64,000 nucleotides of DNA from a bacterium (GCA_016700035.1 CP064998.1:662699-726698); one strand, 5' to 3'. Numbered from the stretch's first letter, positions 3,754-13,059 are shown. The notes: generated by a model not told the origin, from the letters alone. Translations and numbers: made by a program.

Positions 3754-5019
3754 ATGGACAGAGAAGATCCCACCCAACACGGCGATGAAGCCTCAACTCA
3801 GCAGTCAGCCCAAGTAGCCGATGCATTACGAGCCATCCGCTCGACCGCGGAAGAGGCTCCCACAACAGAGACTGATGAGACGACTAAACCCACTCAAACA
3901 GCATGGAGTCAATCACCTTGGGGTTTTCTTGGCGAGCCAACATCTGACACTCAACCAACAAGTAGTCTACCAGAAGTCCCCGCTCCAACTCCTGGTACAT
4001 CAAATGAGAAACTATCAGAGGCCGAGCGGGAAAAGCTAGAAAAAGAAGCGCGTATGCAGGCCTATGTAGAACATAAGGAGGCAATTACTACTTCTGGCTT
4101 GCAGGTCAGACTCGATACTCAAGCAATTGCCAGGCTAGTCGATACAGTTCCAGTCGAAGAAATGGTTGAGCAAAGTTACTTACGTAAAGATGAAGTCGAG
4201 GATCTCATTGCAGATCGGCGGGCAGACATTAGTCGCACTATTGAAGCTATCGCCAGGCTTCCAGAAATACTGGAGTTTAAACCAGGCATAACACTAATTG
4301 TCGGTGAAAATGGACTAGGTAAATCCACCTTAGCTAAATCCCTACGCTATGCCGCCCTCACTCATGATCGAGCTATGCAAGATGGTGATTCGATTGCAGA
4401 AGCTAGAAATTGGGTACTTAGCCCCCGTGCCCATGGTGACGCTCAATTTGAACTCAATGACTCTGGGTTGGCACCTGAAATTTCTGAGTATATCCACGTA
4501 GACTATTATGGCCACATGCCCTATATCACCCCTCACTATTACGATGCTGCCGAAATTATTGGCCGACAAAAGACCCTTAACCGTGAAGCTGGACGCACAG
4601 ATTACCGTTACGATGAACATGGACAAAGTATGCAGTATGCCGGAACGCATAGCCGTACCGGCAGATCCCACCGCCAAACAGTTGACGATCAGCTATTTGG
4701 ATACTTAAAGAGTGAAAAAGAAAGTGAAATTAAAAGAAAAAGTTATCGTTCTGCACGAGAAGATGGCAAGAAGTATCCTACAGATCTTGATACCACAGGC
4801 CCCCAAGTATATTTTATTGATGAACCTGAAACTGGCATGAGCCCCAGACGCCACAAGCAACTAGCTAATGAGATACTAGACGTCACGCACGAGGGCGCAA
4901 CCATCATACTTCCCACAAACTCCACTGTGCTATACGACTCCGACTTACCACGCATTGATTTAGAACATCCAGAGCGAGGTATTTTTCGACCAAGTGAATA
5001 TCCAGAAGATCTAAATTAG
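3754..5019 (+). CDS. P-loop ATPase of ABC/SMC-like fold with about 170-aa disordered acidic/Thr/Pro-rich N-terminus; function unknown
   Basis: Walker A LIVGENGLGKSTL and D-loop-like YFIDEPETGMSP followed by His; no LSGGQ signature seen; divergent from smc with about 100-bp spacer. Confidence 0.5.
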   Translation: MDREDPTQHGDEASTQQSAQVADALRAIRSTAEEAPTTETDETTKPTQTAWSQSPWGFLGEPTSDTQPTSSLPEVPAPTPGTSNEKLSEAEREKLEKEARMQAYVEHKEAITTSGLQVRLDTQAIARLVDTVPVEEMVEQSYLRKDEVEDLIADRRADISRTIEAIARLPEILEFKPGITLIVGENGLGKSTLAKSLRYAALTHDRAMQDGDSIAEARNWVLSPRAHGDAQFELNDSGLAPEISEYIHVDYYGHMPYITPHYYDAAEIIGRQKTLNREAGRTDYRYDEHGQSMQYAGTHSRTGRSHRQTVDDQLFGYLKSEKESEIKRKSYRSAREDGKKYPTDLDTTGPQVYFIDEPETGMSPRRHKQLANEILDVTHEGATIILPTNSTVLYDSDLPRIDLEHPERGIFRPSEYPEDLN

Positions 5020-9348: not shown

Positions 9349-9509
9349 TCAGAATAAATAAAATTTACTTACTTTGATTGAGATTTGTAAAGAAGTTGCC
9401 CCGTCCAAAAACCAAAGCTTTTGGACGGGAGAGGAGGACAGTGCGCCAGAGTCTTCGCAGAGATTTGCCCTACGGCGAATCTCTGCAGACCCTTTAGTGC
9501 TGTCCGACG

Positions 9510-9880
9510 TGGAGCCGGGGGGAATCGAACCCCCGTCCAGAAGGTAAATTCTTACCCTGCTACGACTATTCCCAAGATTTTGCGTGTAACGCTCACGCTT
9601 GGCTAACTGGGTTGCCAATCGGCAATACTGCCGAACTCGTCGCGTCTATTGCGTGATGTCAATCACTCTTTCGCGATCGTCAGTCGTCTGTTCCGACCGT
9701 CATTCTCCGCTTCTGTTGCCAAGCTGCGGTGAATTGGCTCCGTCCTTCTGCGCACATGGTACGAGTGACAATAATCGGGCGTGTTAGGCGGCGATTATTT
9801 TGGGTGCTCCGTTTTACGAGTCTGAGCAACTCGAGTCGCAATAGTAAGTCTTATTCCCTCTGTCGAAACCGATCGGCCCC
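9510..9880 (-). ncRNA. ssrA: tmRNA (SsrA), one-piece, about 371 nt; CCA not encoded
   Basis: Minus strand starts GGGGCCGAUCGGUUUCGACAGAGGG (tRNA-like 5' half). It ends GGACGGGGGUUCGAUUCCCCCCGGCUCCA (T-arm plus acceptor). Downstream hairpins act as terminator. Confidence 0.8.
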
Positions 9881-9890
9881 AGAAGAGTGG

Positions 9891-10190
9891 CTACACGCAG
9901 TAGCCGTTGTCGACCAAGTCCTGCACACGACAGAACTGGGCCGGAATGGAGTCGGTCGGCAGACCAAGCTCCGCATCGAAGCTACGGATGACGTAGCGCT
10001 CGACCGGATTGGGGTACATGCCCTCAGGCAGACTCCAATCACTGGCATCCAGCGCCACGAACCCCTCAACGGGGATCCTGACGTGGAGCATGAGGAGATC
10101 CGTGTGGACCCCGAGAATGCGGACGAAGCCACGATCCTCTTCCTCGCCACCCACCTCTTCGTGGGTGAGGACGTAGATCTTGTCGGACAT
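9891..10190 (-). CDS. hypothetical acidic protein (99 aa), high GC
   Basis: third codon positions almost all C/G in this frame. Confidence 0.5.
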   Translation of the reverse strand: MSDKIYVLTHEEVGGEEEDRGFVRILGVHTDLLMLHVRIPVEGFVALDASDWSLPEGMYPNPVERYVIRSFDAELGLPTDSIPAQFCRVQDLVDNGYCV

Positions 10191-10343
10191 GATCTGCCTT
10201 TCGGCTCAGGGAATCGACTTACTCGATTCACATCTATTTGAAGGTGCTGGGATTGGTCCCAGCCACAATATTCGAAACTTCATTCAAATACTATGGTTGG
10301 GACCCTCCTAAAGCCCCCAAAGGAACTCTAGGAGGGGTGGGGA

Positions 10344-10700
10344 TCAGTCCGAAGACTTGTCCTCACCACCGAGATCCTCGCAGCGCGCGGGAATCTTGAT
10401 GCTCGAGCCGGGCTCGATCTGGCTCTCCTTGGAGAGTCCGTTGCGAGCCAGGATCAGGCGACCCCACTCGGAACGGTAGTCTCCTTCGCCCATGAAGGCG
10501 GTCAAGGAGCTGGCGTACCAGTCGGGGTAGGTGGCATCGATGACGTCACCCAGCATGGGGTCGTAGTCACCGGTGGTGAACTCGTCGACCTGCGCCGAGT
10601 AGTCACACGGGAAGTCGGCAGTCATGTTGGCTGCGTTGCCGCAGCCCGCGAGAGCCACGAAGATGGTCAGGGACAGGGCGATCACGAGGATCTTGCGCAT
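10344..10700 (-). CDS. lipoprotein with C-terminal LysM-like segment, high GC
   Basis: signal peptide plus lipobox LAGC; C-terminal GRLILARNGLSKESQIEPGSSIKIP resembles the LysM C-terminal half. Confidence 0.55.
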   Translation of the reverse strand: MRKILVIALSLTIFVALAGCGNAANMTADFPCDYSAQVDEFTTGDYDPMLGDVIDATYPDWYASSLTAFMGEGDYRSEWGRLILARNGLSKESQIEPGSSIKIPARCEDLGGEDKSSD

Positions 10701-11819
10701 TTTGTATCACCTCACGACGATCCAGGCTGCGTTGGCCCGCGGGGAGACTCCCCACCAAAACTCACGAATATCATGAACTTTGGTGAGCCCCAGAACCCGA
10801 AGGTTCTGGGGAGTGCAGCACATAGGCTGCGAGATTGCCGGGGCGCTATTACCCCACAGTGCGGTCGCAAGCGGTTAAGGCCGAAGCCTAACAAAACCAC
10901 AAGCGGCACACCCGGCACAGCGACTTCCATCTTTTTTGAGAGAGGAAGGTAATGAAAGTCGCGCGAGCTTGACGTCGTCCTGTCATGGAATTGAGCTCTT
11001 TCACCGAGCTCAACCAAAGGGGAGGACAACGTCACATTATAACCGTTGGGGTCCCCTTTTCTGCCTTTGTTAACTACCCACCTCTCTCGAGGTCACCCTT
11101 TTGGGTGTCGCCGTTACTCGACGCAGGCGCAGTTTTACCAATTTTATCTCCCAGAAGCCCAGATTAGGGTTCAGCCAATCTCACTCGAGGACGCTGGTGC
11201 GTAGCTCTCGCTTCAAAAGGCCCCCGCATTACTATGCGGGTCAACGGTTAGCGAATTTGCTAGGTGGAGACGCCTCCACATAGCAGGACACCTACTCACT
11301 CCCCAAGAAGAGGCAGGTTTTCAATGCCCTTGTAATCTGGAAGCTTTATACTCCCGGCGCGAGGCCATATTTTGGCACCGCGCTGGAAGTATAAACTCCC
11401 AGGTTTTAAAGAACTAAAAACTGATGTGTGTTGGTTTAAAAAGGTCAAAACAATACGCACATACGCTCATGTGGCATAACAGCCAGCGTGGGATTGTCGG
11501 GGTTTTTAAAGCAGTTTCGTCCTTACAGGACTCATCAGCTGGAGTACACACTCCAGGACTGCCCCCACTAAAAGCAGCTGTACTGCCTTTTGATGGGGTG
11601 TGAGCTGCGCCAAGCGCTTACAAAGCCACATCTCACTGGCTCGATTTTTATGACTTTCTTGTCAGAGTTTAGTGACGGCCGGTTCTCTCCAGCCCCAAGG
11701 AGCTTCCCCCTGGAATTACGGGCCTTTTACGAGTGCCATACTCGGGTTATGCTTTTCGGATTCTTTTTCCCTCCAATAAGCTTCTGTTGCCAGGCGCTAC
11801 CACACGCCCCGCAGAACCG

Positions 11820-12020
11820 CTACTCGCGATCCCACAGCTCCCAATCGCCCGGGTGGGTCTGGTCGAGCTCATCGCAGAGCTCGATGTAGGTATGACCTGT
11901 GACGATCAACACCTCCCCGGTCGAGATCACCTCGACCAGCCAGTCACTCCGATCAAGCTCTGCGATCCGGCCAGCAGCCGGAGGACGCGGAGCACAGCGA
12001 CGGGTGTAACCTCCTGCCAT
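11820..12020 (-). CDS. small hypothetical protein (66 aa), high GC
   Basis: perfect Shine-Dalgarno AAGGAGGTG 5 nt before ATG; strong C/G third-position bias; second gene of a 2-gene operon. Confidence 0.45.
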   Translation of the reverse strand: MAGGYTRRCAPRPPAAGRIAELDRSDWLVEVISTGEVLIVTGHTYIELCDELDQTHPGDWELWDRE

Positions 12021-12068
12021 TTCACCTCCTTTCAAGGTGTCGTTGGAATGGAATGGAGTTTGCTCGGG

Positions 12069-12404
12069 CTACAAGTAGCCCGGCACTTCGAACTCCGAGT
12101 TGGTTGACTCCTCGCTTGCCACACACAGGTGGCCATCGAGGTGGCCGGCTTGAAAACCGACCTTGTAGCCGAGAATCAGCATGGCCAAGCCACGGTGGTC
12201 TTCGGGCATGTCGAACTCCTCGAGGTCACTGTAGACCATCGCGGCGACCGACACCAGATGGTGCTTGATGATCGCCTCGAGACTCTCACCATCGAGGTCT
12301 TCAGCCACGAGGATCATGCCGAGCATCTGCTCGACCGCATCATCGCTGAAGAGGTTTTCGAAATCGAGATGGTTGGTGGTGGTGCTCATAGGCCTGAACC
12401 GCAT
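12069..12404 (-). CDS. acidic hypothetical protein (about 106-111 aa), high GC
   Basis: ORF with GC3 bias; candidate promoter TTGACA-17-TAAACT about 70 nt upstream on the minus strand. Confidence 0.5.
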   Translation of the reverse strand: MRFRPMSTTTNHLDFENLFSDDAVEQMLGMILVAEDLDGESLEAIIKHHLVSVAAMVYSDLEEFDMPEDHRGLAMLILGYKVGFQAGHLDGHLCVASEESTNSEFEVPGYL

Positions 12405-12605
12405 GAGAGGAATAAGAGCGATCCAAAACTATGAGCACCAGGTATAAAATAAAGGTTCTGTTAAAAAATCTATGAAGAATTTATAACTAAAGCTGAGTTT
12501 AGCAGAAAATATATTTTTTGTCAATACTATTTGTCATTTTTTATATATTTTATACATTTTTTAGCTTTTTACCCTAAAATTTACTTTATTTTTTTGTAAA
12601 TATAT

Positions 12606-12630
12606 ATAGAAAAAGACCCACATTGGGTCT
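12606..12630 (-). terminator. rho-independent terminator (minus strand) ending the candidate ncRNA
   Basis: minus strand reads agacccaatgtgggtct followed by TTTTTC. Confidence 0.6.
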
Positions 12631-13030
12631 TACTTAAATTTGCTTATGGTAGATGTTTTGGGGCGACCCCACGTACTGCGGGGTCGCCCCTTCGCTCGTT
12701 TTGACTTTTAACTGTTTTGCTCCTCGCCACACTCCGAATCATTACGTCATCGGACTCTGGTTTTTAGAGCAAGCACCCCCGTTTTGCCGAGCAGGCTTTT
12801 GGGATGCAATCATTCGCAACTATAGACGAGACGCAGGTCGGGCACAGGTTGCAAATGATTTTCGGCGTTTAGCCACAGAGGGTGATTTCAGGTAAACTCA
12901 CCCATAGCTTCCCCTTTCGGGTCGTGTTGCGCCCGCTAATAGCAGACAGATGACAGAGTAACATCCTCCACACCTAAGTTCCAGCACCACAGAGAGATAA
13001 TCTCCGCTAGCCTTCACTAGCAACGCTTGC
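12631..13030 (-). ncRNA. candidate novel ncRNA of about 420 nt with no ORF; family unknown
   Basis: Bounded by a perfect consensus promoter (13031-13059) and a canonical terminator (12606-12630). Internal perfect 11-bp GC hairpin at 12660-12690. No minus-strand ORF with an RBS. Confidence 0.5.
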
Positions 13031-13059
13031 ATTATACTTAGATTCTAATTATTTGTCAA
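13031..13059 (-). promoter_or_regulatory. consensus sigma70 promoter TTGACA-17-TATAAT driving the ncRNA candidate
   Basis: minus strand reads TTGACAaataattagaatctaagTATAAT, immediately downstream of the trmB-like stop. Confidence 0.65.

What the first reader, a model, noticed from the sequence alone, without database searches (positions are those of the whole stretch)
10701..11819. About 1.1 kb of ORF-free, hairpin-dense GC-rich DNA inside the island
Between the LysM lipoprotein start and the 66-aa gene there is no ORF with an RBS or codon bias; the track ORFs there look spurious. The sequence is full of stable stem-loops. Examples: gagccccagaacccgaaggttctggggag, cccccgcattactatgcggg, gtggagacgcctccac, and a long imperfect inverted repeat at 11345-11398 (tttatactcccggcgcg...cgcgctggaagtataaa). 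It could be one or more structured RNAs, a leader/riboswitch for the downstream lipoprotein (minus strand, 10701-10960), or a badly decayed gene. I tested and could not match RNase P P4, SRP domain IV or group II intron domain V by eye.
Basis: seen in the sequence. Interest (0 to 1): 0.6.

Follow-up and report, generated by a model that had tools for sequence, protein, structure and literature searches.

The report
Hammerhead ribozyme inside conserved structured RNA

Summary
Window 10701-11819 has no credible ORF and folds far better than shuffled sequence (z = -8.6 on the minus strand). A canonical type III hammerhead ribozyme lies on the minus strand at 11564..11509, with predicted cleavage between C11557 and C11556.

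The same hammerhead sits downstream of the same 66-aa gene in 11 distinct related lineages. Three of these score above Rfam's gathering cut-off. Helix I shows compensatory changes at 4 of its 7 pairs.

The rest of the region is also conserved as RNA. It shows no codon periodicity, its indels are not multiples of three, and it is conserved as well as or better than the flanking genes. There are 21 of 76 (module A) and 24 of 84 (module B) predicted pairs with compensatory changes, and the minus strand is favoured.

No Rfam family other than the hammerhead matches. There is no protein homology and no phage or plasmid relative.

Best reading: a structured intergenic RNA of an operon that runs 111-aa gene, 66-aa gene, RNA, lipoprotein gene, 99-aa gene, tmRNA. 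The hammerhead cuts this transcript in two.

The ribozyme is a new member of a known class. The roughly 1-kb RNA around it may be a new RNA class of narrow distribution.

The parts
10701..11819 (-). Whole ORF-free structured intergenic RNA, running from the stop codon of the 66-aa gene to the start codon of the lipoprotein gene.
   Evidence: no ORF. (z = -8.6). (no codon periodicity; 93% identity to L014 against 89% for the adjacent gene). (minus strand favoured).
11509..11564 (-). Type III hammerhead ribozyme. Helix III is GCAG 11562-11559 paired with CUGC 11514-11511. U16.1 is 11558 and C17 is 11557, with cleavage predicted between 11557 and 11556. Helix I is 11556-11550 paired with 11545-11539, and loop 1 is 11549-11546. 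The core CUGAUGA is 11538-11532. Helix II is 11531-11528 paired with 11522-11519. The core GAAA is 11518-11515.
   Evidence: Rfam RF00008 scores 40.9 bits, with E = 6.7e-7 for the region and 1.9e-5 for the whole window. Orthologues score 40-51 bits, three of them at or above the gathering cut-off of 48.5. The minimum-energy fold is the three-helix junction.
11563..11598 (-). Stable hairpin that ends 6 nt before the cleavage site. It would form the 3' end of the upstream cleavage product.
   Evidence: Present at the same place in all lineages with quite different sequences. In A7 helix 8, 4 of 7 pairs change on both sides.
11778..11810 (-). Conserved block directly after the stop codon of the 66-aa gene (GGGGCGUGUGGUAGCGCCUGGCAACAGAAGCUU).
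   Evidence: Nearly invariant in 11 lineages.
11672..11746 (-). Lineage-specific insert of about 75 nt made of hairpins. It is present in the window, L014 and L022 and absent from the other lineages.
   Evidence: Alignments A3 and A7.
11607..11664 (-). Three small conserved hairpins: 11664-11651, 11641-11624 and 11617-11607.
   Evidence: A7 helices 4-6 have changes on both sides at 2 of 4, 2 of 6 and 2 of 3 pairs.
11421..11508 (-). Conserved domain after the hammerhead. It contains the 23-mer AAUCCCACGCUGGCUGUUAUGCC (11495-11473), which is identical in the eight closest lineages and largely conserved in L022, L028 and L033. It also contains the helix ACGCU/AGCGU.
   Evidence: The A-U pair becomes G-C in L028 and G-U in L033 (A7 columns 362/394). 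The enclosing stem is rebuilt from different sequence in L022 and L033.
11337..11402 (-). Long, nearly perfect hairpin of about 29 bp. It is a possible RNase III substrate (inference).
   Evidence: (spurious miRNA-precursor hit). A7 helix 14 has 17 pairs, 4 of them with changes on both sides.
10971..11336 (-). Module B1, a run of hairpins that includes 11283-11260, 11240-11223 and 11091-11082. It is present in the window, L008, L013, L014 and L028, diverged in L012, L011 and L009, and absent in L005/6, L007 and L015.
10826..10970 (-). Module B2. It has a hairpin (10962-10920) and a three-way junction (10916-10837) carrying a GGCUUCGGCC tip and a conserved GUAAUAGC strand.
   Evidence: helices 7-11 are 93-100% paired, with changes on both sides in helices 7, 8, 9 and 11.
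10701..10811 (-). Module C, the immediate 5' leader of the lipoprotein gene. It has hairpins at 10811-10788 and 10787-10749 and the Shine-Dalgarno sequence GAGGUGAU at 10713-10706.
   Evidence: helices 12 and 13.
12496..12537 (-). Promoter-like sites upstream of the 111-aa gene; probable start of the operon transcript.
   Evidence: Equivalent sites with a TG extension occur upstream of the homologous gene in L022 and L028. These are consensus matches only.
11820..12020 (-). 66-aa gene, always found directly upstream of the hammerhead module.
10344..10700 (-). 118-aa lipoprotein gene, located downstream of the RNA.
9509..9880 (-). tmRNA gene at the end of the cluster, starting 10 nt after the stop of the 99-aa gene. 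A terminator-like hairpin lies at 9430-9399.

Best explanation
The region is the transcribed, non-coding middle part of a minus-strand operon. The order is promoter near 12500, 111-aa gene, 66-aa gene, this RNA, lipoprotein gene, 99-aa gene, tmRNA, terminator near 9400.

About 265 nt after the stop of the 66-aa gene the RNA folds into a canonical type III hammerhead ribozyme. This ribozyme cuts its own chain after C11557.

The cut splits the long transcript in two. The upstream piece is a two-gene mRNA that ends in a 2',3'-cyclic phosphate six nucleotides after a stable hairpin (11598-11563). The downstream piece has a 5'-hydroxyl end. It begins with the ribozyme body and a very conserved domain, continues through lineage-variable folded modules, and carries the downstream genes.

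The two halves can then have different lifetimes and translation rates.

Shown here: the hammerhead motif, its conservation and covariation, the conserved RNA structure of the other modules, the strand, and the synteny.

Inferred: co-transcription (from consensus promoter and terminator scans only), actual self-cleavage, and the consequence for RNA stability.
For: Hammerhead motif. Rfam Hammerhead_3 matches at 11564..11509 on the minus strand with all core nucleotides (CUGAUGA, GAAA, A15.1-U16.1, GUC cleavage triplet). E is 6.7e-7, and 1.9e-5 against the whole 64-kb window and 4227 families.

Conservation. The orthologous site in every related lineage fetched also matches. L013 scores 51.3, L014 49.1 and L028 48.7 bits, all at or above the gathering score of 48.5; the others score 40-46 bits.

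Covariation. Across 8 sequences, 93% of cells are paired and helix I has changes on both sides at 4 of 7 pairs. None of 500 shuffles reaches the observed values, and slid controls pair only 32-54%.

Folding. The isolated 64-nt segment folds into the three-helix junction as its minimum-energy structure in 5 of 6 lineages.

Position. The hammerhead always lies about 165-265 nt downstream of the same 66-aa gene, while the downstream genes differ between lineages.

Surrounding RNA. In module A, 21 of 76 pairs change on both sides and 96% of cells are paired. In module B the figures are 24 of 84 and 96%. None of 500 shuffles reaches these values. The minus strand is favoured: alifold energies are -73 against -65 and -76 against -51, and G-U cells far outnumber A-C cells.

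Transcription signals. All flanking genes are on the minus strand. No promoter-like or strong terminator-like site lies on that strand inside the region or in the equivalent stretch of L022 and L028.

Precedent. Bacterial hammerheads flanking genes in polycistronic transcripts are known and cleave in vitro and in vivo (Perreault et al. 2011, PMC3088659).
Against: There is no transcript data, so co-transcription, cleavage and its effect are not shown.

The window's own hammerhead scores 40.9 bits, below Rfam's gathering score of 48.5.

Helix III is short: 4-5 Watson-Crick pairs plus two G-U pairs in the window and 4 pairs in the L005-type lineages. In the L005 type an alternative fold competes with the ribozyme fold.

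A simple 'cutting site' does not explain several features. The sequence just after the ribozyme is identical in the eight closest lineages and largely conserved in the other three. In addition, about 0.5-1.4 kb of further conserved structure follows the ribozyme.

Promoters of this lineage may not resemble the sigma-70 consensus, so internal promoters cannot be excluded.
Confidence: 0.6

Rival explanations
1. The region is a stand-alone large non-coding RNA of a new class, about 0.4 to 1.4 kb depending on lineage, with its own function in trans or as an RNP. The hammerhead only makes its exact 5' end, and the long hairpin at 11402-11337 or other sites provide further processing points.
For: The conserved, covarying multi-domain structure goes far beyond the ribozyme. 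The 23-mer after the ribozyme is more conserved than the neighbouring proteins. In the L022 and L028 lineages 1.0-1.4 kb of ORF-free conserved RNA follows the hammerhead. No known family matches.
Against: No terminator or promoter delimits the region. Modules are gained and lost between close relatives: module B is missing in L005/6, L007, L015 and L033. This fits a spacer or leader better than a machine-like RNA. The distribution is very narrow, with 8 protein clusters for the lipoprotein and 7 for the 66-aa protein among 5.8 billion.
Confidence: 0.2
2. The 3' third of the region (about 10970-10701) is a cis-regulatory leader, either a riboswitch or a protein-binding leader, that controls translation of the lipoprotein gene. 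The hammerhead is a separate element.
For: A conserved three-way junction (10916-10837) and two hairpins lie directly upstream of the Shine-Dalgarno sequence. The 5' arm of hairpin 10787-10749 (CUCACC) is complementary to part of the Shine-Dalgarno sequence GAGGUGAU. This is read directly from the sequence and the implied switch is inference.
Against: L005/6, L007 and L015 have the same lipoprotein gene without this element. In L028 the homologous element precedes the 99-aa gene, with no lipoprotein gene. It matches no riboswitch family even at E up to 10. No terminator-type expression platform is present.
Confidence: 0.12
3. The region is a decayed protein-coding gene, that is, a pseudogene.
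For: Only its length and its position between genes support this. The window's gap (1119 nt) is about 600 nt longer than in some relatives.
Against: Stop codons of all kinds occur in all frames. No frame has a Pfam match. Mismatches against three relatives are spread evenly over codon phases (17/13/15, 57/48/66, 21/28/22), whereas the flanking genes show a third-position excess. Indels are of 1, 2, 5 and 7 nt. The region is conserved as well as or better than the flanking genes, with compensatory stem changes.
Confidence: 0.02
4. The hammerhead match is a chance hit or a dead relic of a mobile or viroid-like element, and the hairpins are DNA-level features.
For: The window copy scores below Rfam's gathering score. 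The cluster is GC-rich relative to the rest of the genome.
Against: The site is orthologous in 11 lineages, with an intact core and compensatory changes. There are no repeats, integrase gene or phage or plasmid relatives. All viral-contig pattern hits were chance matches. The G-U over A-C asymmetry indicates RNA on one strand, not DNA hairpins.
Confidence: 0.04

Closest known systems
Hammerhead ribozyme, type III (Rfam RF00008)
   Same: It has the full catalytic core and three helices with helix III open. The cleavage triplet is GUC. Helix II is GUCC/GGAC with a short loop. Orthologues score above the family's gathering cut-off. From memory, helix II and the UGUGU-type loop 1 resemble the satellite tobacco ringspot virus (+) hammerhead; this is a lead only and was not tested.
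   Different: It lies in the chromosome of a probable Patescibacteria bacterium, as a single copy in an operon. It is not in a circular satellite or viroid RNA or in a repeat. No paper in the searched library links hammerheads with this phylum.
Bacterial and prophage hammerheads that flank genes in polycistronic transcripts (Perreault et al. 2011, PMC3088659)
   Same: It is an intergenic hammerhead in the sense orientation between small genes of unknown function. The presumed role is to cut a long transcript into gene-length pieces.
   Different: Those cases are usually in prophages near integrase genes and often occur in pairs or triplets. Here there is one ribozyme, no phage genes, and conserved synteny in a core-genome neighbourhood (LeuRS, TrmB-like regulator, tmRNA, L32, NusB). 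The ribozyme is also embedded in about 1 kb of additional conserved structure.
glmS ribozyme (cis-cleaving ribozyme in an mRNA that changes the fate of the downstream fragment through its 5'-OH end). Cited from general knowledge.
   Same: Self-cleavage occurs inside an mRNA upstream of a coding region. The 5'-OH product is expected to be handled differently by the decay machinery.
   Different: It belongs to a different ribozyme class. There is no evidence of a ligand. There was no Rfam glmS match.
Large structured bacterial ncRNAs (OLE, GOLLD, ROOL, HEARO, raiA)
   Same: Its size is 0.4 to more than 1 kb. It has many covarying helices, is GC-rich relative to its genome, and is found by being a long ORF-free conserved gap.
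   Different: None of these covariance models matches, even at E up to 10. The module content varies between close relatives. It contains a self-cleaving ribozyme.

Membership tests
Hammerhead ribozyme type III (RF00008) | Conserved catalytic core: C3 U4 G5 A6 N7 G8 A9, G12 A13 A14, the A15.1-U16.1 pair, and H17 at the cleavage site. | tested here: met
   CUGAUGA is at 11538-11532 and GAAA at 11518-11515. A11515 pairs with U11558, and C11557 is position 17. These nucleotides are identical in all 11 lineages.
Hammerhead ribozyme type III (RF00008) | Three helices radiating from the core, supported by base-pair covariation. | tested here: met
   Helix I is 100% paired, with 4 of 7 pairs changed on both sides. 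Helix II is 4 of 4 invariant. Helix III has one clean compensatory pair among its four core pairs. None of 500 shuffles reaches the observed values. The minimum-energy fold is the three-way junction.
Hammerhead ribozyme type III (RF00008) | Type III topology: helices I and II are closed by loops and the chain enters and leaves through helix III. | tested here: met
   Loop 1 is GUGU (11549-11546) and loop 2 is UGUAA (11527-23). The 5' and 3' ends lie in helix III.
Hammerhead ribozyme type III (RF00008) | Score at or above Rfam's curated gathering cut-off of 48.5 bits. | tested here: inconclusive
   The window copy scores 40.9 bits, below the cut-off. The orthologous copies in L013, L014 and L028 score 51.3, 49.1 and 48.7, above it. 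Seven others score 40-46. The cut-off is a curation threshold and not a structural feature of the family.
Hammerhead ribozyme type III (RF00008) | Site-specific self-cleavage that yields 2',3'-cyclic phosphate and 5'-OH ends. | not testable with these tools
   This needs an in vitro transcription and cleavage assay, or end-specific RNA-seq.
Hammerhead ribozyme type III (RF00008) | Tertiary contact between loop 1 and loop 2, needed for fast cleavage at physiological Mg2+. | not testable with these tools
   Loop 1 (UGUGUA, or UAGUUA in L013) and loop 2 (GAAA, AAAA, UGUAA or UGAUA) are short. No covariation pattern could be assessed.
Known riboswitch classes | Match to a described aptamer model. 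| tested here: not met
   No riboswitch family was reported at E up to 10 in 10200-12500 or at E up to 0.1 in 13 related loci.
Known large ncRNAs (RNase P, 6S, SRP, GOLLD, ROOL, HEARO, OLE, raiA, group I/II introns) | Match to the family's covariance model. | tested here: not met
   The only significant hits in the window are tmRNA, a tRNA and the hammerhead. A petD group II domain-5 hit at 10396-10429 on the plus strand (17.9 bits against a gathering score of 65.5, E = 2.1) lies inside the lipoprotein gene and is noise.
Pseudogene | Residual protein homology, or codon-phase-biased substitution. | tested here: not met
   (no Pfam match in any of six frames). (flat distribution over codon phases and indels that are not multiples of three).

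The most novel reading that the evidence does not exclude
Modules A and B together form a previously undescribed class of large structured RNA (about 0.4-1.4 kb) in a Patescibacteria lineage. It uses a built-in hammerhead to free itself from the upstream mRNA. It is physically, and perhaps functionally, tied to tmRNA. In most lineages it lies on the same apparent transcription unit as the tmRNA gene. In the L022 lineage it runs into the tmRNA gene with no ORF in between. Under this reading the ribozyme and the folded RNA are part of how the tmRNA precursor, or a partner RNA, is made.
Probability: 0.25. Interest if true: 0.7.

Novelty: new variant of a known kind. Interest (0 to 1): 0.55.

Why it matters
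Hammerhead ribozymes are common, but their function in bacteria is still largely unknown.

This one sits in a stable chromosomal operon of a reduced-genome CPR bacterium. It is not in a prophage. It is conserved with its flanking RNA structure across species. That gives a clean case for testing what a bacterial hammerhead does to an operon transcript.

The surrounding roughly 1 kb of covarying structure matches no Rfam family. It would add a large RNA to a phylum whose non-coding RNA content is barely charted.

If the tmRNA gene really depends on the same promoter, the locus would link a self-cleaving ribozyme to maturation of a universal RNA.

Tried and rejected
1. Alternative genetic code. 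Stop codons of all three kinds occur in every frame. Rejected.

2. Pseudogene. No frame has a Pfam match and there is no codon periodicity. Rejected.

3. Phage or plasmid origin. Sensitive blastn (distant mode) of 9881-12450 against the phage and plasmid collections found nothing. PHROGs, PADLOC, Pfam and NCBIfam gave nothing for the four small flanking proteins.

4. Pattern scans of viral contigs. Four patterns were tried: CCACGCTGGCTGTTATG, GCCGGGAGTGCCGCTTGTG, GGTAGCGCCTGGCAACA, and GGACGAAAC followed by 10-40 nt and then TCCCRCGCTGG. They returned either nothing or hits with no extended similarity. One of these hits lies inside a tail-fibre-like gene.

5. A second ribozyme. There is only one hammerhead-like core with proper helices in the window. 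No twister, pistol, hatchet or other self-cleaver was found.

6. A switch in which CAUCAG (11426-11421) pairs with the CUGAUG core. RNAalifold predicted this pairing. It is invariant rather than covarying, and the partner sequence is absent in L022 and L028 (helix 10). It is therefore not a general feature.

7. Pairing of loop 1 (UGUGU) with ACACA downstream. L013 changes the loop without changing the partner. Rejected.

8. Similarity of conserved block 1 to tmRNA. There is a 13-nt identity, but its E-value is 0.88 and it does not track the G/U difference in L005. Probably chance.

9. Structure of the 66-aa protein. The AlphaFold2 model has pLDDT 72 and a Foldseek search of the PDB gave no hit with E below 1. 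It gives no functional clue.

10. A long-range helix joining 11128-11125 to 10828-10825. It is predicted with changes on both sides (helix 1). However, it rests on a shaky alignment and the window itself has a mismatch. It is treated as tentative.

Full report
THE OBSERVATION

Window 10701-11819 lies between two minus-strand genes. One encodes a 118-aa lipoprotein (10700..10344). The other encodes a 66-aa protein (12020..11820; the mechanical ORF listing extends it to 71 aa).

All six frames of the region contain 9-21 stop codons of all three kinds.

The region folds far better than chance. The MFE is -459 kcal/mol on the minus strand, against -383 +/- 9 for dinucleotide shuffles. That gives z = -8.6 on the minus strand and -7.4 on the plus strand. 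Four coding stretches of the same length gave z between +2.95 and -2.97.

A permissive Rfam scan of 10200-12500 found a type III hammerhead ribozyme (RF00008) on the minus strand at 11564..11509. It scores 40.9 bits with E = 6.7e-7. It remains the third-best hit of the whole 64-kb window, after tmRNA and a tRNA, with E = 1.9e-5.

Reading the sequence gives the following anatomy.
- Helix III is GCAG (11562-11559) paired with CUGC (11514-11511), plus two G-U pairs.
- U16.1 is 11558 and C17 is 11557. Cleavage is predicted between 11557 and 11556.
- Helix I is CUGGAGU paired with ACUCCAG, with loop GUGU.
- The core CUGAUGA is 11538-11532.
- Helix II is GUCC paired with GGAC.
- The core GAAA is 11518-11515.

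Every core position is canonical. The 64-nt segment folds into the three-helix junction as its minimum-energy structure.

RELATED LOCI

Homologues of the lipoprotein (8 clusters) and of the 66-aa protein (7 clusters) were traced to their contigs. A conserved 23-mer was also scanned in genome and metagenome collections. Together these gave 11 distinct lineages.

One lineage (L013) comes from a MAG titled 'Patescibacteria group bacterium'. The window's own protein is annotated only as '[bacterium]', from a 916-kb contig.

The gene order is syntenic across lineages: LeuRS, a TrmB-like regulator, a 90-115-aa gene, the 66-aa gene, the non-coding gap, variable genes, tmRNA, then L32 and NusB. The 'island' is therefore a conserved, GC-rich cluster and not a recent insertion.

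Every lineage has the hammerhead about 165-265 nt after the stop codon of the 66-aa gene. L013, L014 and L028 score 51.3, 49.1 and 48.7 bits, above the gathering score of 48.5. The others score 40-46 bits.

In an alignment of eight hammerheads, helix I keeps 100% pairing while 4 of its 7 pairs change on both sides (CUGGAGU/ACUCCAG against CGAGGAU/AUCCUCG). One helix III pair changes from A-U to G-C. None of 500 shuffles reaches the observed pairing or covariation, and slid controls pair only 32-54% of cells. This is a genuine, selected hammerhead.

THE REST OF THE REGION

It is not coding. Mismatches against L014, L013 and L008 are spread evenly over the three codon phases (17/13/15, 57/48/66, 21/28/22), while the flanking genes show the usual third-position excess. 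Indels are of 1, 2, 5 and 7 nt. The non-coding DNA is 93% identical to L014, against 89% for the adjacent gene. No frame has a Pfam match.

It is modular.
- Module A (11819 to about 11337) is present in all 11 lineages. It contains a conserved block just after the stop codon, three small hairpins, a stable hairpin that ends 6 nt before the cleavage site, and the hammerhead. After the hammerhead comes a domain holding a 23-mer (AAUCCCACGCUGGCUGUUAUGCC, 11495-11473) that is identical in the eight closest lineages and largely conserved in the other three. Module A ends with a hairpin of about 29 bp (11402-11337).
- Module B (about 11336-10826) is present in the window, L008, L013, L014 and L028, and in diverged form in L012, L011 and L009. 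L028 aligns at 62% identity over 532 nt. L005/6, L007, L015 and L033 lack module B.
- Module C (10811-10701) is the immediate leader of the lipoprotein gene.

Predicted consensus structures are well supported.
- In module A, 76 pairs are 96% paired and 21 change on both sides.
- In module B, 84 pairs are 96% paired and 24 change on both sides.
- None of 500 shuffles reaches these values, and slid controls pair about 40% of cells.

The structure belongs to the minus strand. Alifold energies are -73.0 against -64.5 for module A and -76.3 against -50.8 for module B. G-U cells outnumber A-C cells by 94 to 10 and by 78 to 7.

Apart from the hammerhead, no Rfam family matches the region or its homologues.

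HOW IT PROBABLY WORKS

On the minus strand, consensus scans find promoter-like sites only upstream of the 111-aa gene (12537-12496). They find no promoter-like site and only one weak terminator-like site between there and the tmRNA gene. A terminator-like hairpin follows the tmRNA gene at 9430-9399.

The same picture holds in L022 and L028. There is a TG-extended promoter before the first small gene, and nothing on the sense strand between the 66-aa gene and tmRNA.

I therefore infer one long transcript. The hammerhead would cut it after C11557. The upstream two-gene mRNA would end in a 2',3'-cyclic phosphate just after a covarying hairpin (11598-11563), which would act as a 3' protective structure. 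The downstream RNA would start with a 5'-OH, the ribozyme body and the conserved domain.

This is the role proposed for hammerheads that flank genes in bacterial and prophage polycistronic RNAs (Perreault et al. 2011, PMC3088659).

The steps that are shown are the motif, its conservation, the covariation, the strand and the synteny. The steps that are inferred are co-transcription, cleavage and the effect on RNA stability.

The long, near-perfect hairpin is a plausible RNase III site. Together with the hammerhead it could release a fragment of about 150-200 nt that carries the conserved domain. This is speculation.

RIVAL EXPLANATIONS

A stand-alone large ncRNA matured by the hammerhead is the main rival, at about 0.2. 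The extent and conservation of the structure favour it. So does the 1.0-1.4 kb of ORF-free RNA after the hammerhead in L022 and L028. Against it are the lack of delimiting signals and the gain and loss of modules between close relatives.

A riboswitch-like leader for the lipoprotein gene is possible for 10970-10701. However, that element is dispensable in three lineages and matches no known class.

A decayed gene, a chance hammerhead or a mobile-element relic is very unlikely.

COMPARISON WITH KNOWN SYSTEMS

The ribozyme meets the sequence and structure criteria of the type III hammerhead family. Only catalysis and the loop-loop contact could not be tested.

The context differs from the described bacterial cases. 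There is a single copy, no phage genes, and a core-genome neighbourhood next to tmRNA. The ribozyme is embedded in about 1 kb of further conserved structure.

The searched paper library holds no report of hammerheads in Patescibacteria or the CPR.

I rate the finding as a new variant of a known kind. The ribozyme itself is a new member of a known class. The surrounding RNA may be a new class but has a very narrow distribution.

Noticed in passing
window 12613-13059 (minus strand): A unit of about 420 nt lies right after the TrmB-like gene. It has a perfect 12/12 sigma-70-like promoter (13059 to 13031) and a clean intrinsic terminator (12631 to 12613). Its MFE z-score is -5.9. It has no conserved ORF and no Rfam match. 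The same perfect promoter occurs in L028 at 4893-4921. It is a candidate unknown small or medium ncRNA gene.
   Followed up: partly
window 9509-9890 and 9881-12496 (minus strand): The tmRNA gene starts 10 nt after the stop codon of the 99-aa gene. No promoter-like site was found on that strand for 2.6 kb upstream. The same holds between the 66-aa gene and tmRNA in L022 and L028. The tmRNA may therefore be the 3' end of the operon transcript that carries the hammerhead.
   Followed up: partly
L022 6202-7867 (also L023-L027): In this lineage 1.67 kb without any real ORF separates the 66-aa gene from tmRNA. A 123-aa gene call there overlaps the tmRNA and is spurious. The lipoprotein homologue sits after the tmRNA instead.
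   Followed up: partly
L009 about 453-1000 and L010 about 62-610: An insertion of about 500 nt carries an uncalled 78-aa ORF. It lies inside the hairpin that precedes the lipoprotein gene and is flanked by two diverged copies of that hairpin.
   Followed up: no
window 10191-10343 (minus strand): The short spacer between the lipoprotein gene and the 99-aa gene is also strongly structured (z = -7.7 for 10200-10359). L008 has about 500 nt at this position.
   Followed up: no
window 11780-11792 and 9709-9721: The conserved block after the 66-aa gene shares a 13-nt identity (UGGCAACAGAAGC) with the tmRNA. The E-value is 0.88 in the window self-search. L005 has 12 of 13 matches, so the identity is probably chance.
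   Followed up: yes
window 10344-10700: The 118-aa protein has a lipoprotein signal peptide (LAGC lipobox).
   Followed up: partly
window 9881-12404: The whole small-gene cluster, genes as well as RNA, has 53-58% GC against about 45% for the rest of the window. Yet it is syntenic in all relatives examined. The cause of this compositional difference was not examined.
   Followed up: no
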